In this document: positions 3,634-61,525 of the stretch, one piece after another
Position numbering within the stretch: position 1 is the first letter of the stretch
Layout of the letters: each line of letters begins with the position of its first letter
From: Candidatus Nanohalarchaeota archaeon
GTDB taxonomy: Archaea; Nanohalarchaeota; Nanosalinia; Nanosalinales; Nanosalinaceae
Length of the DNA: 64,000 nucleotides
Direction: 5' to 3'
Assembly (NCBI GenBank): GCA_022729235.1
Contig: JALDAJ010000001.1
Coordinates: 224,001 to 288,000, forward strand
The notes under the pieces: generated by a model
Seen by the model: only the letters and a program-made list of their open reading frames with translations
Database searches by the model: none
Told to the model about the DNA's origin: nothing
Position numbers and translations under genes: made by a program

Positions 3634-3780
3634 GCCGGGGTGACTGAGTCTGGACGAAAGTGCCAGCCTGGAATAGCCGGCTCCTCTTTGAGGTGACGGC
3701 TTGAGAAGAGCTCTTCTCTTCGATCCCAGTCAGCTGGTGACCCATACCGGGTCTCCTGGGTTCAAATCCCAGCCCCGGCG
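3634..3780 (+). tRNA. tRNA-Ser(GGA) with 58-nt intron 3674-3731
   Basis: Acceptor GCCGGGG/CCCCGGC, anticodon GGA 3670-3672, long variable arm, BHB with CTGG/CCAG helix. Confidence 0.93.
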
Positions 3781-3793
3781 TCTTCGACGCCTT

Positions 3794-3908
3794 GCTGGAT
3801 TTGATTATCCTCACATCTCTCACGAGAAGTTCAGGGTTCAAATCCGAGAAATCCAGTTCTGGTTTCGAGTTGCAGAAAATCTTTTGATTTTCGAACCCAT
3901 ATCCGGCG
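3794..3908 (+). repeat. tRNA-derived inverted and direct copies plus two tandem GAA..TTC-GA hairpins
   Basis: gctggatttga (antisense T-arm), gggttcaaatcc, gagaaatccagttctggtttcga, gcagaaaatcttttgattttcgaa, degenerate 3' copy ending ccggcg. Confidence 0.7.
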
Positions 3909-12452: not shown

Positions 12453-12500
12453 CGGTCGAACCTCTGGTTCGAGCCGTTGAGAAGATCTCTGATCTTCGAA
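12453..12500 (+). repeat. Two-hairpin palindromic element in the rpl18e 5' leader
   Basis: cggtcgaacc-tct-ggttcgagccg ttga-gaagatc-tct-gatcttc-ga; TATA tttataaa at about 12406. Confidence 0.8.
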
Positions 12501-32467: not shown

Positions 32468-32523
32468 ACGGCTTTCTCCGTTCAGGAGATAGCCGTTTGA
32501 GAAACCTGTTCTGCAGGTTTCGA
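32468..32523 (+). repeat. Two-hairpin palindromic element in the 16S leader
   Basis: acggctttctcc-gttca-ggagatagccgt ttga-gaaacctg-ttctg-caggtttc-ga. Confidence 0.78.
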
Positions 32524-32553: not shown

Positions 32554-34027
<1,474 letters not shown>

Positions 34028-34196
34028 GAAAACTTAGCTTCTGCCACACAACCGGCAGAAGCCTCACACATCACTTCCAGGAACGCTATCAGCCTGGAAT
34101 GAGAATCCGTCTCTTCTTACATCCTTTACTTTTTGCTTTCTCTGAACTTTTTCCGAAAACTTTTAATACGCAGAAAAACAATGTTACTATGTTACA

Positions 34197-34613
34197 ATGA
34201 CAAAAATGAAGGATTATACAGAGCTAGCAAGTCAGGAAGAATCCGATTTGGAACTCAGAAGAGTAGAAGTAGCCGAATATAACTCGAAAGAGTGGGTATA
34301 TCAAATATGGAGAAACCAAGACACAGAGGAAGACTATGTCAGTGTCCTAGGTGAGCTAGAAAATACTAGCGAATACTGCAAAAATCACAGGTTTGAAGGA
34401 GACATAGAGGAACATATTCTGGAAGACGATAGGGTATACAAATGGAGTCCTTCAAATACTGAAACCGAAGCTACCGTAGTATCTGTCCACAAGTACGACG
34501 AAAAAGATAGACCTGAAACCGCAGCCAGCATCAAAGCATTGGACAAAAACGGAGAAGATGCCGAAGATTTAGAAACCATCTTAGAATCTAACCTAAATCA
34601 AGATCCTGTATAA
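34197..34613 (+). CDS. Hypothetical protein
   Basis: Acidic ORF, AT-rich codons. Confidence 0.6.
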   Translation: MTKMKDYTELASQEESDLELRRVEVAEYNSKEWVYQIWRNQDTEEDYVSVLGELENTSEYCKNHRFEGDIEEHILEDDRVYKWSPSNTETEATVVSVHKYDEKDRPETAASIKALDKNGEDAEDLETILESNLNQDPV

Positions 34614-34684
34614 TATACCTGTACATACCTCTGCATCCCTCAGACTGTAAAGAAGGGTTTATAAACAGTCGAGAAACCCAGTGC

Positions 34685-35029
34685 ATGAGTCACGCCGATG
34701 CCTCGACCGAGCACTCTGGAAGATCAGCCGCGTATGAAGCAACTAGAAGCCTGGAAGAAGATCTTGATCCTCTCAGACCCTCTGAAACCGACATCAATCT
34801 TTCAAGAGAGTACCGATCCGATGAAAACACATTAATCCTCAGTTACGAGGCGATCCCTACCGAGTTCGCAGAACAAGAACTCGAGGACGCTGAAAAAGCT
34901 AGCGGAAAACGCCGACTGAAACCAAAAACAGAGGAGAAAGCAAAAAATCTCTACGAAGGATGGCTAGAGGCGTTCAGCGAACTTCATGCCAGGTCAATCT
35001 TATACGAACCTTGGGACTCCAACATCTAA
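34685..35029 (+). CDS. Hypothetical protein
   Basis: Acidic ORF with upstream tttataaa. Confidence 0.55.
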   Translation: MSHADASTEHSGRSAAYEATRSLEEDLDPLRPSETDINLSREYRSDENTLILSYEAIPTEFAEQELEDAEKASGKRRLKPKTEEKAKNLYEGWLEAFSELHARSILYEPWDSNI

Positions 35030-35170
35030 GGAAACTGATTACAACCGCGTACAAGAACCATTGCATAATATTTCGCCCCCCTCAAAATGAAGCACCTGTT
35101 TTACATATCGCTGTCAACCCTCGCCGCGTTCTCCACCTGGAAGAAGCGATCGGAAACATCATAACACCTC

Positions 35171-35617
35171 ATGATAACTTTCCAGTTAATGACAGAGGAG
35201 TTATGCCGTGTAGGTATAGTGGCCGTAATCCGTGACGAAAACAACCGCTTCCTGATGGAAAAAAGAAAGAATCCGGAAGAAGAGGACAACTACTGGGGGC
35301 TAATCGCGGGCGGTAAGAAAGCAGATGAGAACAGCCTGGAAGCCGCGGAAAGAGAGGTAATGGAGGAGACCGGTACAGACTTCCACCCAGAAGAAATCGT
35401 CGGGATAGTAGAGCACAACGACCAGAGAGGAGACAGCACCTCCTGGACCGTAGTAGTAGTTGAAGGCGCCATCAACGGCGAACCAGGAAATATGGAGCCA
35501 GAGAAACGAGAAGAAATCACCTGGAAGAAAGAAGACGAATTACCGGACAACCTGCACCCTACAACAGAACTGGCGCTCGATATACTCGAAAAAGACGCGA
35601 TGCATCCGGAACTATAG
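35171..35617 (+). CDS. NUDIX hydrolase (start possibly 35189)
   Basis: AGGKK..EN..EAAEREVMEETG, NMEPEK. Confidence 0.9.
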   Translation: MITFQLMTEELCRVGIVAVIRDENNRFLMEKRKNPEEEDNYWGLIAGGKKADENSLEAAEREVMEETGTDFHPEEIVGIVEHNDQRGDSTSWTVVVVEGAINGEPGNMEPEKREEITWKKEDELPDNLHPTTELALDILEKDAMHPEL

Positions 35618-35634
35618 AAAAACAGCACAATTGA

Positions 35635-35729
35635 TGGACCCTCAGGGATTCGAAAATCGAAGATTTTCTTCTCCTCAGAACTCTGCCGAGTTCTTCAGTT
35701 TGAAGAAATCCCTGATGTAAACTGAAGAG
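35635..35729 (-). repeat. Inverted copy, hairpins and direct copy of the tRNA-Ala 3' end
   Basis: tggaccctcagggattcgaa (35635) vs tggaccctcagggatttgaa (35730); core agaaaatc-ttc-gattttcgaa on the minus strand. Confidence 0.82.
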
Positions 35730-35878
35730 TGGACCCTCAGGGATTTGAACCCTGGGCCTTCCGCTGTTTTGGCCTAATTCCGCCGTAGGCGGCGACCACC
35801 GAAGTGTGGTCCTTGCGTGCCGCACGAGCGTAACCAGGCGTGCAAAGCGGACGTTCTGCCAGGCTGAACTAAGGGCCC
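35730..35878 (-). tRNA. tRNA-Ala(TGC) with 75-nt intron 35766-35840
   Basis: GGGCCCT/AGGGTCC with G3-U70, anticodon TGC, canonical BHB. Confidence 0.93.
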
Positions 35879-35950
35879 GAACGTATACTGTTGTAGTTGG
35901 TTGGTAGTTTTTTAAAGTGAAAAGTTATCCTGGAATGACATCTGGTTACC

Positions 35951-35960
35951 TTATTTAAAG
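35951..35960 (+). promoter_or_regulatory. Probable TATA box of an independent 23S transcript
   Basis: ttatttaaag divergent from tRNA-Ala. Confidence 0.45.
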
Positions 35961-36286
35961 GTTAAGTCTGATTCTTTGGATGCGGGACAATGAAATGAGA
36001 AGGATTATCTCGGATTCGTCTTTTTGCCTATAGAGTCCCGCTCTTGTCTTCCTTGCTTGATAGGCGGGGAGGATTATCTACCTATAAGGGGCGTCCCGTT
36101 GCGGATGTCCTTAGCACGAAAATGTCGCCTGACGCGAGGAGGATGGTGACAAGTAGTGCCACGCACGAGCAGATTTTTTGCGTGAAGCAGGTCCGGCCGC
36201 AATTTTACAAGTGATCCACCGGGCGTCTGTTTCTCGGCTCTGCCGAGAGATGGAGCATATCAAGTTGGTGCCTGACGTTGGATTGC

Positions 36287-39205
36287 TGGTACACAGCCGG
36301 TTAGCGAATGGCTCGGTTCGAGAAGCCGATGAAGGACGTGGCAAGCTGCGATAAGCTTGGGTAAGGCGCATGCAGCCCTAGAGCCCAAGATTTCCTAATG
36401 CGACCTCGTAGGTCGCTTCGGCGACCTAGCCCGCAAGGGCAGGGAACGCGGTGAACTGAAACATCTTAGTAGCCGCAGGAAGAAAAATCAACTGAGATCT
36501 CCTTAGTAGTGGCGAACGAAGGGGAGATAGCGCAAACTGAATCCGCATCTGTGAAGATGCTGGACATGTGGTTCGGCCGTCCGTAGGGACCGCGTCGTGT
36601 AGTCGAAGTCCTCTGGAAAGAGGCGCCGTAGAGAGTGATAGCCTCGTAGACGATCGCGACAACGTTCTGGGACGTGCCAAGAGTAGCATGGGTTGGAAAT
36701 CCTGTGTGAACTGGGAGGCACTACCTTCCAACGCTAAATACTTCTCGAATCCGATAGCGCACTAAGTAGTGTGAACGAAAGCTGAAAAGTACCCTTTACA
36801 GGGGGTTCAAAGACCCTGAAACTAACCGGTGATAGGCTAGGCAGGGCGTGGAAGCTTCGAAACCTTTCAACGAGCCAGTCGAGAGACTGTAGTAGGACAA
36901 GGTGGAGCAGCGTCCTGTCATCCGTTTTGAAAAACGGGGCAGGGAGTGTACTGCCGTGGCGAGACTAAGTCGTTTACGCGATGGAGTCGTAGCGAAAGCA
37001 AGAAGCCCGCAGTTTACGAGGGGTCACGTGTTAACTCGCGTGAAGTCACCGCAGTACGATCCGAAACCGGTCGATCCTGGCCTGGGCAGGTTGAAGCGCA
37101 GCGAAAGCTGCGTGGAGGACCGCAAGCGGTGCTGTGATACAAGCGCTCGCGTGACCTGGGTCAAGGGGTGAAATGTCAATCGAGATCGGTGATGGCTGGT
37201 TCCTCTCAAAATGGGCCGAAGTCCAGCCTTGGACGAGCCGGCTAACGAGGTAAAGCGACTGATTCCGACTCCCTAGGGTTTCCCTAGGGCCGGAGTCAAA
37301 CTCTGAACTCGTTAGCGGTGTAGACTCCAGGAGTCAGGGACGGTGCGTAAGGTACCGTTCCGAGAGGGAAACAACCCAGAGCAAGGTTAAGGCCCCCAAT
37401 TCCTGACTAAGTGCCCATGAAGGGCGTCTCAGTTCTCAGACAGCGGGAAGGTTAGCTTAGAAGCAGCTACCCTTTAAAGAAAGCGTAACAGCTCACCCGT
37501 TGAGGACCGAGGCACCTAAAATGGACGGGGCTCAAGTCAGGAGCCGATACCTTGCCATTGTTTCTACAATGGATAGAGAGGCGATCCGTTCGGACGGAAG
37601 CATGGACGTGAGTTCGTGTGGACCGTGCGGATACGAAGATCCTGCCGGTAGTACCAGCGTCAACAAGAGTGAGAATCTCTTGCGCCGCAAGAGGAAGGGT
37701 TCCTCGGCAATGATTATCAGCTGAGGGTTAGCCGGTCCTAATCCCGCTCCTAACTGGACGCGGGAGAATTGGGAAGCAGGTTAATATTCCTGCGCCTACC
37801 CACGATAACCGACGTTTCGGGATAGCGGAAACTGCGCCTTCGCGCAGTCTAAACTGTTAATGCGGGCGAGCGTAATGCTTCGACCCCGTGAAACAGTGAA
37901 TGGCCTGGGAATTATCCCGGGTTTCCGTGAGTCCTGGAACCTTTGAAAAGGTGTGGGAGTCCGTACCCAGAACTAGCACAAGTCCTCTGGCTGATTAGGC
38001 TAAGGCGTTTCGGGCACAACTCGGCTCAGGGAATTCGGCAAGTTAGCTCCGTACCTTCGGAAGATGGAGTGCCTATCCTCTCGATAGGATAGGTCTCAGT
38101 GACCAGGGGGGCTCGACTGTTTACTAAAAACACATCCGACTGCCAGTCCGAAAGGATTTGTATAGTCGGAGACCCTTGCCCAGTGCCAGCACCTGAACAC
38201 CCCGTACATGGGGACGAAGGGCTGGTAAACGGCGGCGGTAACTATGACCGTCTTAAGGTAGCGTAGTCCCTTGCCAGTTAATTACTGGCCCGCATCAATA
38301 GGGCAACGAGGTCCCCACTGTCCCGAGCCGTGGCCCGGTGAACCCGCCGTACCGGCGCACAGGCCGGTGACTCCCGGTGGGAAGCGAAGACCCTGTGAAC
38401 CTTTACTGCAGTCTGTCGTTGCTGCGGGGGTCCAGGTGTGAAGTGTAGGTAGGAGACGTTACAGAGACGCAGGCGCTAGCCTGTCGCCCAGTCGACCATG
38501 GGACACTACCCTCTTGGAACCCTGCGGCTTACGTCTACGGACGGACAGCGGCAGCTGGGCAGTTTAACTGGGGCGGTATCCCTCTGATAACGAATCAGAG
38601 GGGTCCAAAGGTAGGCTCAGCCCGGTCAGAAATCGGGCGTAGAGTACAAGGATAAAAGCCTGCCTGACTGGAATCTTACCAATACGGATTCCAGGCGCGA
38701 AAGCGTGGCCTAGCGAACCTCTGTGTGCCAATTAGTGAGGCCCAGGTATGACAGAAAAGGTACTCCAGGGATAACTGGATTGTCTCGGGCGCGAGCTCAC
38801 ATCGACCCCGAGGCTTGTTACTTCGATGTCGGCTCTCCGTATCCTGGCTGTGCAACAGCAGCCAAGGGTGGGGGTGTTCACCCATTAAAACGGATCGTGA
38901 GCTGGGTTTAGATCGGCGTGAGCCAGATCGGTTGCTATCTGCCGGGAGTGTTTATGCGGTTTGAGAGGAAAGTCCGGACAGTACGAAAGGAACCCTGGAC
39001 TGAGGCCTCTGGTGTACCTGTCATCCGAGAGGGTGTTGCAGGGTAGCTACGCCTCACAGGCCTAAAAGCTGAAAGCATCTAAGCTTGAAGGTCTCCTCAA
39101 ACAAGAAACCGCATCCGCTCTCGTACAAGACGAGTTGATAGAGTGGCGGTGTAAGCACCAAGGCAACGAGGTGTTCAGCCGACCACTACTAATCGCGGGT
39201 TTCAC
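36287..39205 (+). rRNA. 23S rRNA (ends approximate)
   Basis: GAACTGAAACATCTTAGTA, GGGATAAC, TCGATGTCGGCTC, GTGAGCTGGGTTTAGA, SRL, GCTGAAAGCATCTAAG; processing stem 36186-36272/39223-39345. Confidence 0.98.
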
Positions 39206-39247
39206 AGCAATTCCACACGGACGGCACCAACTTGAGCTCTAACAACT

Positions 39248-39302
39248 ACGACTTACTCCCGTCAGGGAGTTGGTCGTCTGAGAAGACCTCTTTGGTCTTC
39301 GA
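39248..39302 (+). repeat. Two-hairpin palindromic element in the 23S 3' processing arm
   Basis: acgacttactcc..gggagttggtcgt ctga-gaagacc-tcttt-ggtcttc-ga. Confidence 0.85.
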
Positions 39303-39425
39303 AACAGGTGCCTGGTGGATCACTTACCCAACGGCCGGACCTGCTAAGGTATACTTTTTCTGTATTTCTATCTCTATTTACCAGATAGAGAAAGATTTTT
39401 CTGCTACAATAGGACTAAACATACT

Positions 39426-40523
39426 ATGGAAGATGTTCTGAAGGATTATCCTCATCTCTATCAATTTCTACCCGACAACTTTGTGAAAAAGGCTAAACAG
39501 AAAGAAAGAGACGTGGAACACTCCATTATAGTATCTATAAAAAATAATTCCAACTATTTAGAGGTTTTGAATGACAGAATTGAAAGCTTGAAAGGGACTC
39601 CTGGTGAGAATATACTTGACAGATATTCCTCACAAGTAGATTCAAACAAAAAGTTTCATAGCTTTCTAGCAGAAATGAATTGCTATCTTCTGCTAAATGA
39701 GATTTTTGAGGACTTAGAACCCGTTAACGAAGATAGCTTCGATGAAGGTAAAAAACCTACCGATTTCTACTCAGAGAAACACGAAATTGACATCGAAGCT
39801 ACCTCTATTAACAAACACGAACCAGAGAGCAAACTATTCAGTTTAATTAGAGACTGGATAGAAGGTTTTGAGGAAAGCTATGAAGTGAGATTAATTAAGA
39901 AAGATAACTACAACAAATTCCCTTCCAACTATAAGGAAATAGAGGAAAATAGCAAGGAAGTAGAAGAAGTAAAACGTCTCATTGAGAACACGCCTCAACC
40001 TGAGACAATTGAAACAGATGCCTTCAAGATAACAGTAGAAAAATCTGATTTTGAAGAATCTATCTTCAAAGGTTCTGGTTGGGAATCTGCTGAATTTATT
40101 CCTGAAGATCCATCAAATTCTATTCGGAATCAGATAGATTCCAAAACAGACAAAGACCCTATATCAGACCACATGCTAATCTATCTAGATATAGATGGGT
40201 TTTTCCAGATGGATCATTCTTTGACAAAAATACTTCAGGGAGGAATTACTCATTTCGAACCGCCTATAGAACCAGAAGTGTCAAAGAAACTCAACACACA
40301 ACCAGAAGCGCTGAGAAAATATATGGAGGAGAATGGATTAATTCCCTCAGAAAATCAGCCTAGTGCTATACCTCCTGACGAAGAAGGTCTGTTTAAAGAA
40401 ATCGATGACTCGATAATTGGAGTAATCGCTTATCTACCCAATAGAAAACTAGTATTTCTACCAAATGTGTATAGTCAGAACCAGAAAGTTACTGAGATAC
40501 TAAATACCTTAGAACCAGAATAA
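39426..40523 (+). CDS. AT-rich orphan, possible PD-(D/E)xK nuclease fold
   Basis: FLAE ... KPTDF ... IDIEATS; atypical composition. Confidence 0.5.
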   Translation: MEDVLKDYPHLYQFLPDNFVKKAKQKERDVEHSIIVSIKNNSNYLEVLNDRIESLKGTPGENILDRYSSQVDSNKKFHSFLAEMNCYLLLNEIFEDLEPVNEDSFDEGKKPTDFYSEKHEIDIEATSINKHEPESKLFSLIRDWIEGFEESYEVRLIKKDNYNKFPSNYKEIEENSKEVEEVKRLIENTPQPETIETDAFKITVEKSDFEESIFKGSGWESAEFIPEDPSNSIRNQIDSKTDKDPISDHMLIYLDIDGFFQMDHSLTKILQGGITHFEPPIEPEVSKKLNTQPEALRKYMEENGLIPSENQPSAIPPDEEGLFKEIDDSIIGVIAYLPNRKLVFLPNVYSQNQKVTEILNTLEPE

Positions 40524-40609
40524 GAGTCTAATATGTAGGCTAGGGGTATCTGAAAATTTCTTACAGAGATTCAGCTAGTTTTTTAGATTTTTCTGCACTA
40601 TATAGCAGT

Positions 40610-40762
40610 ATGAGCGATTCTGACGACTTTTGGAAAGTAGTGGCAGGAGCAGCAGGATTAGGAGGTCTTGCCTATCTGCTTTCTACGAAAAAGTGTCGTC
40701 AATGTGGTAAAAGAAATCCTAATGAAAACCAAAGATGCTCTAACTGCGGAGCATACCTATGA
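40610..40762 (+). CDS. 50-aa TM plus zinc-ribbon protein (not in the ORF track)
   Basis: MSDSDDFWKVVAGAAGLGGLAYLLSTKKCRQCGKRNPNENQRCSNCGAYL; ATGA overlap with next gene. Confidence 0.8.
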   Translation: MSDSDDFWKVVAGAAGLGGLAYLLSTKKCRQCGKRNPNENQRCSNCGAYL

Positions 40763-41094
40763 CCTCTCTAAAAGAGCTTCTTAGGATATCCGATATAGAA
40801 TTCTGGAAGGAATTGAGACATAACTGGAACCACGGAAGTGTCAAAGACCAGATGCTTTTCTGTCTTCTTATTACTCCAATGCTAACCTTCCTAGTATTCT
40901 ATAACAATGGAATGCCAAAAATACAGCAGTATTTTGTAGGCGGAATGCTCCTAGTACTATTTGTTTCAATTTTCAATACTTGGGCGTTTGCCAAAGGCGA
41001 ATATGAAGAAAGAAATTATAAGTGCAACAACTGTGGAAACCCTATGGAACACAAGTTAATAGAAGACCATACTTGCCCTGAAGATACAGAATAG
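40759..41094 (+). CDS. Two-TM protein with C-terminal CxxC..HxC motif
   Basis: Two hydrophobic helices, CNNC...HTC. Confidence 0.65.
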   Translation: MTSLKELLRISDIEFWKELRHNWNHGSVKDQMLFCLLITPMLTFLVFYNNGMPKIQQYFVGGMLLVLFVSIFNTWAFAKGEYEERNYKCNNCGNPMEHKLIEDHTCPEDTE

Positions 41095-41143
41095 AATGAT
41101 CGCTCTGCAAAAGATTTTATATCCTTAAGAGAAACTTGAACGC

Positions 41144-41365
41144 GTGGAAGTTGCAGAAAAAGCCAGTATAGATGCTACTTTGGGCACAGGACTTATTATT
41201 TCAGCACTGTCTTTATGGCTAATAGTTTTTCAGCTAGAGGAGACATTGTATCTCATTCATAGATCAGCTCAAGCCCTCTGGATACTAGGCATTTTCTTTA
41301 TTAGCCATAGTGTGATTGCCAGATTTACGGGCAAAGGAATAAGGGATCTCCTCAAGAGAGACTAA
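41144..41365 (+). CDS. Small two-TM protein
   Basis: Hydrophobic ORF, GTG start. Confidence 0.5.
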   Translation: MEVAEKASIDATLGTGLIISALSLWLIVFQLEETLYLIHRSAQALWILGIFFISHSVIARFTGKGIRDLLKRD

Positions 41366-41492
41366 ACAAAACTAAACACCTCCTACCTCTAGTTAAACGC
41401 TCTCCTCTGTTTTTTGAACAGAATTAAACGGTCGTTCACGGATATGGCATTTAAGCACCGCCACCCACAGTTTTGGTCGAGGTGAAACACGA

Positions 41493-41813
41493 ATGAGAAC
41501 ATTACTAATCGCACTACTAGCAATCGGGTTAACTGCAGGAGCAGCGGCGATCCCTGCACACGCACAGGACAATATGCCAGATCAGGCAACGGAGAAGATG
41601 GAGGAACACATGCACGATGAAGCAGAGCATCAGGTCCAGGAGAACCAGCAGGAACTGCCTGAAGAAGTAGAGCAGGCAGGTGAGAGTTCAGAGGAAGCGA
41701 ACAGCGAACGGCAAGGATCTCCTGAACACGTCACACGGGGACCGCCCGCGTTTGTAGCGGATAAAGTTCCTGCTCACGTGCTTGATAGAGTGCCGGCGTT
41801 TGTCTTCGGCTAA
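41493..41813 (+). CDS. Secreted acidic low-complexity protein
   Basis: SD GAGGTGA, signal peptide, GPPAFV..VPAFVFG tail. Confidence 0.72.
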   Translation: MRTLLIALLAIGLTAGAAAIPAHAQDNMPDQATEKMEEHMHDEAEHQVQENQQELPEEVEQAGESSEEANSERQGSPEHVTRGPPAFVADKVPAHVLDRVPAFVFG

Positions 41814-41912
41814 AAGAGTGGAGGAGCTCCCGATCCCTTCCCTTCTTTATTTTTGTCAGACTGTATACGCCTTTCTTAAGCAACCCCACCAAATTTGAGG
41901 ATGTGATTTAAA

Positions 41913-42464
41913 ATGAGACGAGCAATTGTCGCAGTAGCTCTCGCAGTATTTCTTGTCGCGGGAGCTACTACAGTTGCGGCGCAAGAAGAGCATAACGAGT
42001 CCGTTGAAGATCCAGTGAATGAGACTGAGGAAGAGATAGAAGCTCCAGTGAATGAAACAGAAGATGAAGTAACAGAGGCTGAAAGAGGTGAGTCCGCTCA
42101 GTTCGACGCTCGGTTGATGACCGCGATCAACACGGTCGAGGTACTTGTAGAAATCGCTCCAGACGAGGAATCGGAGCAAGCACTCCAGGATGTACTGGAC
42201 AGCCTTGAGGAAGTACAGGAGAACACTGATACAGCAAGCCTCGGACCTGAAGGAACACCGAGAGAAGTACCTGAAGACGCAGGAGAGCAAGACGGAGCAG
42301 AAGAGGAACCTGAAGAAGCAGATTCCGGAGAGGAAGCAGAAGAAGCTGGAGAAGAGACACCGGAAGAAGATGAACAACAGGGACCGCCTGAAGACCGTGG
42401 ACCTGAAGAGAACGAGAACCGGCCTGGATTCGTTAACCGGATGCTAGGCGGCATCTTCGGTTAA
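41913..42464 (+). CDS. Secreted acidic low-complexity protein
   Basis: Signal peptide, GPP, RPGFVNRMLGGIFG tail. Confidence 0.72.
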   Translation: MRRAIVAVALAVFLVAGATTVAAQEEHNESVEDPVNETEEEIEAPVNETEDEVTEAERGESAQFDARLMTAINTVEVLVEIAPDEESEQALQDVLDSLEEVQENTDTASLGPEGTPREVPEDAGEQDGAEEEPEEADSGEEAEEAGEETPEEDEQQGPPEDRGPEENENRPGFVNRMLGGIFG

Positions 42465-42528
42465 TCGACCCAGGAACCTCGGTAGCGCCGACAAACCTTT
42501 TTCTTCTTTTACTTCTCTAGTATACAGT

Positions 42529-43125
42529 ATGCCTGAGAGCCCAGAGGCGTTTTACTCACGCGGAGCCGAGAAATTTGCGGAGAAGAATTCTTTCGAGAAT
42601 ATGCCCCAGGAGTACATAGACCTTCTTGACCAGTTCATCGAACTCGTTCAAGGCGATGAAGTCTTGGACGCAGGCTGCGGGCATGGTAGAGATACAAACT
42701 ATTTTACCGAGAACGGGCTTGACACTATCGGGATCGACGTAGCGGGCGGTATGCTAGAGTACGCTAGGGAGAACCAAAAAGGAGAATATCTACGGATGGA
42801 TGTCAGAGAATTAGAATTTGAGGATAACAGGTTTGACGGCTTATGGTGCAATACCGTTCTGCTTTTCTTCCCGATAGGCGAGATGAGAGATGTGATAAAA
42901 GAACTTTCCAGAGTTACAAAAGACGACGGCGTGATTTTTGTCAGCTTCAAAATCGGAGAAAGCCCTATAATGCGCGAAAAATACGGTAGTGAAGTTAAAC
43001 ACCATCTTATACCTGAGGAAAAAGCCATAGACCTGCTTGAATCAGAAGATTTGGAGATAATCGATGTTTACAGATACGAAACTGGCGGAGGATTCAAGGT
43101 CGCCGACATCTTCTGTCGAAACTAG
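42529..43125 (+). CDS. Class I SAM-dependent methyltransferase
   Basis: VLDAGCGHGRD, GID, FDGLW. Confidence 0.9.
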   Translation: MPESPEAFYSRGAEKFAEKNSFENMPQEYIDLLDQFIELVQGDEVLDAGCGHGRDTNYFTENGLDTIGIDVAGGMLEYARENQKGEYLRMDVRELEFEDNRFDGLWCNTVLLFFPIGEMRDVIKELSRVTKDDGVIFVSFKIGESPIMREKYGSEVKHHLIPEEKAIDLLESEDLEIIDVYRYETGGGFKVADIFCRN

Positions 43126-43163
43126 CACCAGATTTTAACGTTTCTCTCACCAATAACTCCTGT

Positions 43164-43580
43164 ATGTCAAGCCATGCCCCTCCTTTCCAGAACGGTGCAG
43201 GAGGCGTTGACCCTCTAGTATTTACAGCTCTGGGAGCCTTGATTGTGATCGTCATCATGTCTTTGGCGTATATCTGGTGGCTTCATAACAGGAGGGAGAC
43301 TATCCTGCCCGAGGAAGAGCTTGAGAAAGAGGATGAAACACAGGAAGACGTGAGAATCGACCGCATGGGATTGTCAAAACGGTCGGAAGATGTTCTGGGT
43401 GTCGTGATGGACGCCCCGATGCTGCAGAACGAGCTTCCAGACGAACTCGGTGTTTCGAAAGCCACAGTCAGTAACGCTGTAAGCGAGCTTTTCGACCGTG
43501 ATCTTGTGATGAAGAAAAAGAAGGCGAACACGTACCTTATCGAGCCTAACATGGATGAGATACGGGAACAGTCCCGCTGA
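43164..43580 (+). CDS. Membrane-anchored winged-HTH regulator
   Basis: N-terminal TM; QNELPDELGVSKATVSNAV. Confidence 0.8.
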   Translation: MSSHAPPFQNGAGGVDPLVFTALGALIVIVIMSLAYIWWLHNRRETILPEEELEKEDETQEDVRIDRMGLSKRSEDVLGVVMDAPMLQNELPDELGVSKATVSNAVSELFDRDLVMKKKKANTYLIEPNMDEIREQSR

Positions 43581-43623
43581 TATCGGCGTTGAGCTTAAAA
43601 ATCTTGTCGTATAGGTTAGCGTG

Positions 43624-44110
43624 TTGGAGGCGGAGTGACCGCCACCGCTGGCGTTCGCAAATCAGAGATTTGCTTCCAACAGCGATCTCTGACGAGAACG
43701 CTGAGTGAGGAAAGTCCCGACACCGACTCAAACGTGGCAGCTGTAAGAGCTGTGGACCGGAAGGTCCTGGAGATCCATCGCAACCTCAGTAATATGAGGG
43801 TAGGTGGCTCATGGAGCAGCAGAAACGACACGTCCTGGTTCAAAGATGACGGCGTGAATGGTGGTAATGGCGTCAAAACCGACGCCACCAGCAAAAGCCA
43901 GATATTTACCAGGGATCGATGAAACGTGGCTCTGACACCCGGTGCAAGCCGAAAGAGCGCGCCGTGCAGGAACGAACCTGCCGGACCAGTCAACCTTCAC
44001 AGGTAGCCTGGTAGTTAAATGCGGTCCACGACTTACTCCTCTCGGGAGTTGGTCGTTTGAGAAGAGCTTTGCTCTTCGATAACAGAATCGGGCTTACTCC
44101 CGCCTCCACC
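43624..44110 (+). ncRNA. rnpB: RNase P RNA (about 485 nt)
   Basis: GAGGAAAGTCC, GCAGAAAC, TGAAACG, GGTGCAAG, TAGTTAAATG, AACAGAATCGGGCTTA; P1 tggaggcgg/ccgcctcca. Confidence 0.93.
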
Positions 44111-44378: not shown

Positions 44379-44569
44379 GGGTCCGTAGCTCAGCCCGGAC
44401 AGAGCACTCGGCTTCTATTCCTCAAGTTCCCAGTAGGGAACGAGGACCGAGAAGACCGCAGGGTCTTCGAAACACACCTTCTCCCCGCGGAGAAGTGTGC
44501 TCGAACGGCTTTCGTCTCAAAGCCGTAGAAGACACCGAGATGTCGAGGGTTCAAATCCCTCCGGACTCG
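44379..44569 (+). tRNA. tRNA-Arg(TCT) with 116-nt intron 44418-44533
   Basis: GGGTCCG/CGGACTC, CTCGG/CCGAG stem, anticodon TCT 44414-44416. Confidence 0.92.
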
Positions 44570-56940: not shown

Positions 56941-56998
56941 AGTGTAGCCGAGCCCGGATTTGAATTCGAAGACAAGTCTTCTGCAACCAAATGCGGGC
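56941..56998 (-). repeat. Inverted copy, core hairpin and 24-nt direct copy of the tRNA-Phe 3' end
   Basis: agtgtagccgagcccggatttgaa (56941) vs agtgtggccgagcccggatttgaa (57011); minus-strand gcagaagac-tt-gtcttcgaa. Confidence 0.85.
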
Positions 56999-57014
56999 AT
57001 AGGCACACAAAGTG

Positions 57015-61340: not shown

Positions 61341-61525
61341 CGCCCAGGCCAGGGCTCGAACCTGGGACCACGACGTTGCTGTACCGAAGACCAGTGATCA
61401 CACCGTTTCCTAGAAACGGTGTTCGAGCATCGCTCTTGAAGAACGATGCGATCTTCTTGAACACCATTCTCGGCGAGAATGGCGTGTTTAACAGCGTCGC
61501 GCTCTACCTGCTGAGCTACCTGGGC
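61341..61525 (-). tRNA. tRNA-Asn(GTT) with 112-nt intron 61377-61488
   Basis: GCCCAGG/CCTGGGC, CGACG/CGTCG stem, anticodon GTT, CTGT/ACAG helix. Confidence 0.92.

What the first reader, a model, noticed from the sequence alone, without database searches (positions are those of the whole stretch)
39248..44079. Near-identical 52-55 nt insert in the 23S processing arm and inside RNase P RNA
Seen: acgacttactcc (12/12), gggagttggtcgt (13/13), tgagaaga and tcttcga are identical between 39248-39302 and 44028-44079. Differences are confined to loops, one linker base and one compensatory pair. In rnpB the insert lies between the P2 3' strand and CR-V (the variable P19 position); in the pre-23S it loops out of the processing stem. 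Inference: recent copying between unrelated RNA genes, the best evidence here for mobility.
Basis: partly seen in the sequence, partly recalled or inferred. Interest (0 to 1): 0.85.

Follow-up and report, generated by a model that had tools for sequence, protein, structure and literature searches.

The report
Shared two-hairpin module, RNase P and pre-23S
The two look-alike stretches are resident copies of a conserved two-hairpin RNA module that nanohaloarchaea carry in tRNA introns, rRNA processing stems and RNase P RNA, and only one hairpin was recently made identical between them.

Summary
39248-39302 (35 nt after the 23S 3' end) and 44028-44079 (inside RNase P RNA, between the P2 3' strand and ACAGAA) share hairpin H1 (25 of 25 stem bases), a 2-nt linker and a GA-flanked hairpin H2.

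It is not a recent insertion. The same module sits at the same rnpB site in 6 of 11 relatives' rnpB genes. It sits at the same 23S-trailer site in 4 of 16 relatives, with compensatory changes. In the sister species each locus keeps its own H2 stem, but the H1 hairpins differ. So only H1 was homogenised in this genome, most likely copied from the 23S trailer into rnpB.

The module belongs to a phylum-wide family. A model built from three window copies hits 33 of 70 nanohaloarchaeal genomes, mostly in canonical tRNA introns next to the bulge-helix-bulge splice motif. It also hits 16S leaders and, in other genera, two further rnpB sites.

Its junction reads helix, YY, G·A/A·G, helix, which is k-turn-like. 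I propose a protein-binding (L7Ae-type) folding platform, but this function is untested. No Rfam family matches it, and my searches found no paper describing it.

The parts
39248..39277 (+). H1 hairpin of the 23S-trailer module. It is a 12-bp stem with a U-G pair and a U.U mismatch, and the loop is CGUCA.
   Evidence: The stem bases are identical to 44028-44056.
39278..39302 (+). Linker CU, then GA, then hairpin H2 (GAAGACC / GGUCUUC, loop UCUUU), then GA.
   Evidence: The H2 stem is identical in the 23S trailer of sister species G001.
44028..44056 (+). H1 hairpin of the rnpB module, loop UCUC.
   Evidence: It departs from the rnpB-type H1 kept by G001, G024, G012 and G009.
44057..44079 (+). 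Linker UU, then GA, then hairpin H2 (GAAGAGC / GCUCUUC, loop UUU), then GA.
   Evidence: The H2 stem is identical in the rnpB of G001.
43625..44108 (+). RNase P RNA gene (archaeal type). The module is a 51-nt insert between the P2 3' strand and CR-V.
   Evidence: RF00373, 79.8 bits, E 2.9e-22.
36280..39213 (+). 23S rRNA.
   Evidence: RF02540, 2648.5 bits.
36248..36272 (+). Leader half of the 23S bulge-helix-bulge motif: AGAUG, GAGC, bulge AUA, UCAAGUUGGUGCC.
   Evidence: Conserved with a compensatory change in relatives.
39223..39247 (+). [quoted passage not shown] The module starts at the next base.
36211..36232 (+). Leader strand of the outer processing helix. It pairs with about 39303-39323, just after the module.
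   Evidence: (co-fold).
32468..32523 (+). Third copy of the same module type, in the 16S leader, ending 30 nt before the 16S 5' end. Its H1 is 72-73% identical to the two copies.
44419..44470 (+). Module of the tRNA-intron subtype (H1 CCUCAAGUUC..GAACGAGGA) inside the 116-nt intron of tRNA-Arg(UCU), about 300 nt downstream of rnpB.
3675..3725 (+). Module inside the intron of tRNA-Ser(GGA).
   Evidence: (E 3.7e-5 genome-wide).
61434..61486 (-). Module-like match inside the intron of tRNA-Ala.
   Evidence: (27.1 bits).

Best explanation
The two stretches are long-resident copies of one conserved RNA module of Nanohaloarchaea.

The module is a hairpin H1 (consensus AC-nnnn-U-UCUCC..GGAGA-U-nnnn-GU), two pyrimidines, and a second hairpin H2 whose base is flanked by GA on each side (GA-GAAGA..UCUUC-GA).

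In the pre-23S RNA it branches off directly outside the bulge-helix-bulge (BHB) cleavage motif, on the side that is discarded. In tRNA introns the same module abuts the BHB in the same way. In RNase P RNA it is a peripheral expansion at the P19 position.

Shown:
- Both sites are old.
- Both hairpins are kept by compensatory changes.
- Each locus has its own H2 lineage.
- In this genome the rnpB H1 has been replaced by the H1 version found 4.8 kb upstream in the 23S trailer.

Inferred:
- The replacement was a short-tract, non-reciprocal copying event (gene conversion or template switching). It was seeded by the shared ACG and YUGAGAAGA flanks, with the 23S trailer as donor.
- The module works as a rigid, k-turn-like junction (helix, short bulge, tandem G.A/A.G, helix). 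It nucleates local folding and binds a protein, most likely L7Ae, which is already a subunit of archaeal RNase P.
- It presents the BHB in introns and pre-rRNA, and braces the P2/P4 region in RNase P.
- The rnpB copy is retained in the mature RNA.
For: Age of the two sites:
- rnpB insert present in G000, G001, G012, G024, G009 and G011. Absent in G005, G008, G006, G017 and G003. That is 6 of the 11 rnpB genes recovered from 41 genomes.
- 23S-trailer module present in G000, G001, G005 and G007 of 16 trailers read by eye. G011 has H1 with a decayed H2.

H1-only homogenisation:
- G000 and G001 share the rnpB H2 stem and, separately, the 23S H2 stem. Their H1 hairpins are 62% (rnpB) and 50% (23S) identical.
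- G000 rnpB H1 versus G000 23S H1 is 27/30.
- G001 rnpB H1 is 83% identical to that of G024, a different genus.

Donor: the U-G / U.U interruption of H1 is shared by the 23S and 16S spacer copies (G000, G005, G011). It is lacking in the rnpB H1 of G001, G024, G009 and G012.

Family:
- Model R1 hits 24 of 41 relatives at E<=0.01 and 33 of 70 genomes of the phylum set at E<=0.001.
- 17 of 26 relatives' hits lie in canonical tRNA introns.

Structure: 16 of 17 pairs have double changes and 96.5% of cells are paired, against 33-55% when the partners are slid.

Junction letters: G 47/51, A 49/51, G 50/51, A 47/51, and the first H2 pair is G-C in 47/47.

BHB next to the module.

L7Ae:
- An L7Ae-family gene is present.
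- L7Ae binds k-turns in archaeal RNase P RNA (abstracts of PMC4245976 and PMC5499556).
Against: - The linker is 2 nt, not the 3-nt bulge of a standard k-turn. The A-U pair that would have to open covaries (AU 35, other standard pairs 7, unpaired 5 of 47).
- The rnpB copy has no third helix.
- The H1 loops of the two copies differ (CGUCA against UCUC) while 25 stem bases are identical. A single clean conversion tract does not predict this. It could instead mean selection on the stem sequence.
- The same lower-stem variant occurs in 4 of 47 family members, including introns of G001 and G004. A draw from a limited repertoire, or a donor other than the 23S trailer, is therefore not excluded.
- The letter and pair counts come from hits selected by, and aligned to, a model built from three copies of this genome. 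They lean towards that model.
- There is no binding, expression or processing data of any kind.
Confidence: 0.6

Rival explanations
1. One reading: a small mobile element recently inserted into both the 23S trailer and rnpB.
For: - The two copies are near-identical.
- The family is patchy across genomes and sites: rnpB J5/7 in G001, G005 and G011, and P12 in G024.
- A module-like match in antisense orientation lies in the rnpB P3 region, 43653-43705.
Against: - Orthologous modules occupy both sites in other genera.
- The H2 stems are orthologous locus by locus with G001.
- I saw no target duplication or terminal repeats.
- No Y1 transposase was found (0 matches), and the only TnpB-like match is below the cut-off.
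- Copies differ by compensatory changes rather than being near-identical repeats.
Confidence: 0.07
2. No copying took place. Both H1 hairpins independently reached or kept the same sequence, because a sequence-specific partner constrains H1 or because the family has only a few allowed variants.
For: - The H1 consensus is strongly sequence-conserved (UCUCC..GGAGA and the U.U mismatch).
- The lower-stem variant of the pair recurs in 4 of 47 members.
- The loops differ although the stems are identical.
Against: - The rnpB H1 of G001, G024, G009 and G012 forms a distinct, shorter type without the U.U mismatch. G000 would therefore have needed 10 or more coordinated changes, while the rest of the rnpB 3' part stayed about 95% identical to G001.
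- Only these two places in the genome carry this H1.
Confidence: 0.2
3. The rnpB copy is an intron-like insert. It would be cut out of the RNase P RNA precursor by the splicing endonuclease, as its relatives in tRNA genes are.
For: - The module type is mainly an intron component (17 of 26 hits).
- Small circular segments of RNase P RNA were reported in Sulfolobus (passages of PMC3326292).
Against: - I found no bulge-helix-bulge around the insert. The flanks AAAUGCGGUC and UAACAGAA do not pair in register in any of the 6 orthologues (read by eye).
- The only splicing endonuclease gene is a single 198-aa frame. That looks like the homotetramer type, which by recalled knowledge needs a canonical motif.
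- P19, J5/7 and P12 are positions that tolerate extra helices.
Confidence: 0.1
4. Assembly artefact that duplicated a stretch.
For: None found.
Against: - The genome is a single contig.
- The copies differ at loops, linker and one base pair.
- Both sites have orthologues in independent assemblies.
Confidence: 0.01

Closest known systems
K-turns and k-junctions bound by L7Ae, including those of archaeal RNase P RNA (P12, P16). Sources: abstracts of PMC4245976, PMC5499556 and PMC10573300.
   Same: - Helix, short bulge, tandem G.A/A.G, then a second helix whose first pair is Watson-Crick.
- In introns and the 23S stem, a third helix leaves from the non-bulged strand, as in a k-junction.
- It occurs in RNase P RNA.
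   Different: - The bulge is 2 nt.
- The site in RNase P RNA is P19, or J5/7, not P12/P16.
- Both helices are capped hairpins, so the strand enters and leaves at the junction.
- Binding is untested.
Helix P19 of bacterial RNase P RNAs (recalled, not from a call).
   Same: An optional peripheral element between the P2 3' strand and the P4 3' strand.
   Different: P19 is a single hairpin. This is a two-hairpin junction, homologous to intron and spacer modules.
Similar introns at many tRNA sites in Thermoproteales, read as intron transposition. Source: Fujishima 2010, as described in a passage of PMC4090602.
   Same: Related intervening sequences in different RNA genes of one lineage, tied to the bulge-helix-bulge motif.
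   Different: - Here all tRNA copies are at the canonical position.
- The module also sits in pre-rRNA spacers and, without a splice motif, in RNase P RNA.
Bulge-helix-bulge processing stems of archaeal pre-rRNA. Source: abstract of PMC7714728.
   Same: The 23S stem has a canonical 3-nt bulge / 4-bp helix / 3-nt bulge motif with covariation.
   Different: My searches found no description of a conserved two-hairpin branch starting 5 nt outside the motif.
L7Ae-responsive k-turn in the 5' leader of its own mRNA. Source: abstract of PMC6298567.
   Same: - A k-turn whose 3b.3n pair does not allow folding without the protein.
- In this genome, GA-flanked hairpins holding the Shine-Dalgarno letters lie right before start codons of ribosomal protein genes.
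   Different: Those leader hairpins mostly have C, not G, at the first position, and R1 does not score them.

Membership tests
K-turn / k-junction | Watson-Crick C helix on the 5' side of the bulge | tested here: met
   All 11 pairs of H1 show double changes, and 94-97% of cells are paired.
K-turn / k-junction | Three-nucleotide bulge | tested here: not met
   The linker is 2 nt in both copies, with family columns 67-68 reading U then Y. Three nt would require opening the A-U pair, which covaries.
K-turn / k-junction | Tandem G.A and A.G pairs opening the NC helix | tested here: inconclusive
   The letters fit: G 47/51, A 49/51 on the 5' side and G 50/51, A 47/51 on the 3' side. Sheared pairing itself cannot be shown from sequence. 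In the wider hairpin family the first letter is G 14, C 21, U 4, A 5 of 44 (my tally).
K-turn / k-junction | Third helix on the non-bulged strand (k-junction) | tested here: inconclusive
   Present for the 23S copy (outer processing helix) and in tRNA introns. Absent for the rnpB copy.
K-turn / k-junction | Binding of an L7Ae-family protein | not testable with these tools
   An L7Ae-family gene exists in the genome.
Archaeal bulge-helix-bulge intron | Two 3-nt bulges separated by a 4-bp helix at the insert's two ends | tested here: not met
   rnpB: I found no such pairing of the flanks in the 6 orthologues (by eye). 23S: the motif exists but the module lies outside it.
RNase P helix P19 | Element between the P2 3' strand and the P4 3' strand | tested here: met
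   Rfam alignment, insert after model position 257.
RNase P helix P19 | Single hairpin | tested here: not met
   Two hairpins.
Transposase-driven hairpin repeats (REP, IS200/IS605-derived) | Cognate Y1 transposase or TnpB in the genome, and near-identical copies | tested here: not met
   PF01797: 0 matches. PF07282: 20.4 bits, below the cut-off. The copies differ by compensatory changes.
Box C/D sRNA | Box C (RUGAUGA) and box D (CUGA) pair | tested here: not met
   There is no box C in either copy. CUGA occurs only in copy 1, at the linker.
Any Rfam family | Match at or near the gathering score | tested here: not met
   Nothing at gathering score on the window apart from rRNA and tRNA. For 39214-39350 the best match is 15.5 bits, E 0.69.

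The most novel reading that the evidence does not exclude
Nanohaloarchaea harbour a so far undescribed modular RNA element: a k-turn-like two-hairpin junction. It forms the core of most of their long tRNA introns. Over evolutionary time it has been planted into other stable RNAs, namely both rRNA processing stems and at least three different sites of RNase P RNA. Its hairpins can still be exchanged between loci. It would serve as a common protein-binding handle (L7Ae or an unknown partner) that couples tRNA splicing, rRNA excision and RNase P assembly.
Probability: 0.3. Interest if true: 0.8.

Novelty: new variant of a known kind. Interest (0 to 1): 0.62.

Why it matters
- It turns an apparent jumping insert into something more useful: a defined, phylum-wide RNA building block, shared by three RNA maturation pathways of a reduced, host-dependent archaeal lineage.
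- It gives a concrete candidate for an extra protein site in RNase P RNA.
- It offers a natural case of an intron-type module fixed, apparently unspliced, in a ribozyme.
- It gives a datable example of short-tract sequence exchange between unrelated RNA genes.
- It explains why Rfam scores this RNase P RNA below threshold.
- It supplies a model that can improve annotation of nanohaloarchaeal tRNA introns and rnpB.

Tried and rejected
- RNA evidence: the look-up of sequencing runs listed no RNA holder for 43625-44108. Retention of the insert remains open.
- Metagenome scan for the H1 core: 15 stretches, none followed by an H2 hairpin, all read as chance matches.
- Genome-collection scan for H2 followed by CR-V: 9 stretches, 6 from nanohaloarchaeal or uncultured archaeal MAGs and 3 bacterial chance matches. 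It was used only to name the lineage.
- Generic descriptor 'two hairpins + A..GA': 52 hits against 26-52 in shuffles, so uninformative and dropped.
- Descriptor A-GAA..UUC-GA with a stem of 7 bp or more: 44 hits against 0-3 in 10 block shuffles. R1 does not score the mRNA-leader members, so I do not claim they are the same family.
- MAFFT alignment of 11 modules misaligned H1. RNAalifold recovered only H2.
- Hammerhead core, box C/D, T-loop, tRNA-like minihelix and RNase Z/RNase P substrate mimicry were considered from the letters and dropped, because the defining letters or lengths do not fit.
- Literature searches for Nanohaloarchaea with tRNA intron, for Nanohaloarchaeota with RNase P, and for bulge-helix-bulge with kink-turn/L7Ae/pre-rRNA listed no paper on such a module. 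Supplements were not seen.
- Classification of 23S trailers, 16S leaders and L14/L24 leaders of relatives was by eye.

Full report
**Setting**

The window is G000:C1:224001-288000 of a single-contig 1,027,595-bp archaeal genome, GC 48.5%. Record titles of relatives that share a diagnostic rnpB pattern read Candidatus Nanohaloarchaea.

Rfam places 16S at 32554-34027, 23S at 36280-39213 and several intron-bearing tRNAs in the window. With the permissive threshold, archaeal RNase P RNA aligns at 43625-44108. It scores 79.8 bits against a gathering score of 84, E 2.9e-22.

**Observation**

Both stretches are as described. Each is made of:
- a hairpin H1 of 12 bp, interrupted by a U-G pair and a U.U mismatch;
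- a 2-nt pyrimidine linker;
- a 7-bp hairpin H2 flanked by GA on both sides (z -5.1 and -4.0).

The 25 stem bases of H1 are identical. The copies differ in both loops, one linker base and one C-G/G-C pair of H2.

Evidence against chance:
- Genome-wide BLAST gives E 3.4e-11.
- No third place carries this H1.

Position:
- In rnpB the 51 extra bases follow the P2 3' strand and precede gaUAACAGAA.
- After the 23S the module starts 35 nt past the mature end.

**The 23S processing stem**

Co-folding leader and trailer gives helix 1 of 23S, then a 13-bp helix, then a canonical bulge-helix-bulge (BHB):
- Leader 36248-36272: AGAUG / GAGC / bulge AUA / UCAAG...
- Trailer 39223-39247...CUUGA / GCUC / bulge UAA / CAACU.

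In five relatives' leaders paired with their trailers, the 4-bp helix and both 3-nt bulges are kept. G015 has AAGC/GCUU, a double change.

The module begins at the base after CAACU. It is followed by a 22-bp outer helix with 36211-36232. So it lies just outside the cleavage motif, on the side that is discarded and, by established knowledge of archaeal rRNA processing, ligated (abstract of PMC7714728).

**Relatives: rnpB**

Of 41 genomes searched, 12 gave a match, counting this genome itself. For 11 of these I could read the span from CR-I to CR-V.
- Six have a two-hairpin insert at exactly this site: G000, G001, G012, G024, G009 and G011, from four genera.
- Five have only 5 nt there: G005, G008, G006, G017 and G003.

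The inserts differ by compensatory changes in both hairpins.

**Relatives: 23S trailer and 16S leader**

Of 17 loci with the 23S 3' end, the anchor was found in 16. Reading by eye:
- G000, G001, G005 and G007 have H1 plus H2 at the same place. G007's H2 ends in GG.
- G011 has H1 with a decayed H2.
- G023 and G002 have only an H2-like hairpin.
- Nine have nothing similar.

A third copy sits in the 16S leader, 32468-32523. It has counterparts, again by eye, in 6 of 15 leaders, and further upstream in G003.

**What is recent**

G001 is the only other species of the genus in the set.
- Its rnpB H2 stem equals that of G000, and its 23S H2 stem equals that of G000. The C-G/G-C difference between the two G000 copies therefore predates the two species.
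- Its H1 hairpins are unlike those of G000 (62% and 50% identity) and unlike each other.
- G001's rnpB H1 is 83% identical to that of G024, a different genus. The rnpB H1 of G001, G024, G009 and G012 is a shorter helix without the U.U mismatch.
- The G000 rnpB H1 has the interrupted 12-bp form typical of the spacer copies (G000 16S and 23S, G005 and G011 23S).

Hence H1 of rnpB was replaced in the G000 lineage. The only other place with this H1 is the 23S trailer, 4.8 kb upstream on the same strand.

I read this as short-tract copying between ACG on the left and YUGAGAAGA on the right.

Two reservations:
- The loops differ although the stems do not.
- The same lower-stem variant occurs in 4 of 47 family members. 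Selection on a small repertoire, or another donor, cannot be excluded.

**The family**

Twenty of them have introns of 30-116 nt at the canonical site, and many contain H1 plus H2.

A covariance model (R1) was built from the three window copies in rnpB, the 23S trailer and the 16S leader.
- In this genome it also finds the introns of tRNA-Ser(GGA) and tRNA-Arg(GCG), at E 3.7e-5 and 9.7e-4.
- It finds matches in 24 of 41 relatives at E<=0.01.
- It finds matches in 33 of the 70 genomes held for the phylum at E<=0.001, in three of five families.
- Of 26 hits in relatives that I had not yet placed, 17 lie inside canonical tRNA introns. Two are 16S leaders. One lies 350 nt after a 23S end. The rest have no Rfam gene nearby.

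In the model-based alignment of 51 hits (47 distinct):
- 16 of 17 pairs show double changes, and 96.5% of cells pair, against 33-55% when the partners are slid.
- The consensus is CAC-nnnn-U-UCUCC..GGAGA-U-nnnn-GU-UY-GA-GAAGA..UCUUC-GA.

These counts lean towards the model, which was built from this genome.

A separate H1 subtype, CUCAAGUYC..GRACGRGGAC, is in 7 introns of G000 and in 15 of 41 genomes. The reversed control pattern gave 0.

**Other rnpB sites**

Relatives' RNase P RNAs carry the same module elsewhere: at J5/7 in G001, G005 and G011, and inside P12 in G024. Their presence is patchy. This is the real evidence for spread on a long time scale.

No Y1 transposase and no TnpB above the cut-off is encoded. 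I saw no terminal repeats or target duplications.

**Mechanism**

At the junction the letters read: helix, UY, G-A, then G-C, A-U..., and on the return strand ...C, G-A. That is the k-turn pattern of C helix, bulge, tandem G.A/A.G and NC helix. The strand enters and leaves where a k-junction has its third helix (definitions from passages of PMC4919917, and the abstract of PMC10573300).

The first NC pair is always Watson-Crick. According to the abstract listing of PMC4382518, that prevents folding without protein.

L7Ae is encoded in the genome, and it is a known RNase P subunit that binds k-turns.

Against this reading, the bulge is 2 nt and the closing A-U pair covaries.

I therefore propose, at about 35-40% for the L7Ae part, a protein-bound folding platform. 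It would present the BHB in introns and pre-rRNA and brace P2/P4 in RNase P.

The single splicing-endonuclease gene is a 198-aa frame. That fits canonical motifs only, a point I recall rather than tested.

I found no BHB around the rnpB insert, so I take it to be retained. No RNA data could be obtained.

**Known or new**

No Rfam family matches the module. Three literature searches listed nothing on it.

The closest known things are:
- L7Ae k-turns of RNase P RNA;
- bacterial helix P19;
- intron transposition in Thermoproteales (passage of PMC4090602);
- BHB processing stems.

**Verdict**

The element is a new variant of known kinds, namely a structured expansion or intron-core module with k-turn-like features. 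The recent event is a hairpin swap, not an insertion.

Noticed in passing
G000:C1 217405-217430, 217858-217877, 236480-236499 (= window 12480-12499), 487314-487335, 487861-487884, 583036-583059, 585842-585863, 605405-605428, 620595-620616, 626238-626259: GA-flanked hairpins (mostly preceded by UCG-CA), each with an upstream hairpin, end 0-27 nt (73 nt for GlyRS) before start codons. The genes are L14, L24, an L18e/L15-family protein, L1, L11, S19, L3, RpoB, GlyRS and PheRS-beta, and all 10 of 10 tested are translation or transcription genes. The Shine-Dalgarno letters (GGUGAU) often lie in the 3' strand. Presence is patchy in relatives. R1 does not score most of them.
   Followed up: partly
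window 35650-35700 (-), 56966-57010 (-), 3780-3900 (+): Just downstream of tRNA-Cys, tRNA-Phe and tRNA-Ser lies a second copy of the tRNA's T-loop-to-3'-end letters. It is preceded by one or two GA-flanked hairpins. This could be a remnant of an integration site or an unrecognised exon.
   Followed up: no
window 43653-43705 (-): The 54-nt expansion of P3 in this RNase P RNA scores as a module on the antisense strand (26.6 bits). If real, it points to insertion at the DNA level in either orientation.
   Followed up: no
window 44093-44100 versus 44032-44039 and 39252-39259: The 8-mer CUUACUCC of the H1 5' strand also occurs in the P4/P1 3' strand of rnpB. The new H1 3' strand could therefore mispair with the RNase P 3' end.
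   Followed up: no
window 34028-36279: 16S and 23S are 2.2 kb apart, with a minus-strand intron-bearing tRNA-Cys (35730-35878) between them. No 5S rRNA was found in the window. Each rRNA has its own processing stem.
   Followed up: no
whole genome: 20 of 34 ARAGORN-called tRNAs carry introns of 30-116 nt at the canonical position. With only 34 called, further tRNAs are probably missed.
   Followed up: partly
G000:C1:61957-62030 (-): The leader of the L7Ae-family gene contains CCGAUGACG..UCGAGGUG, a box-C-like k-turn candidate overlapping the Shine-Dalgarno letters. This matches published L7Ae autoregulation (abstract of PMC6298567).
   Followed up: no
L007, L014, L006 (rnpB of G005, G003, G012): A different paired-hairpin insert (GCAUUUCGAAGAAAUGC ... 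GCAAAUCUUCGAUUUGC) sits in the P15-P17 region of these RNase P RNAs.
   Followed up: no
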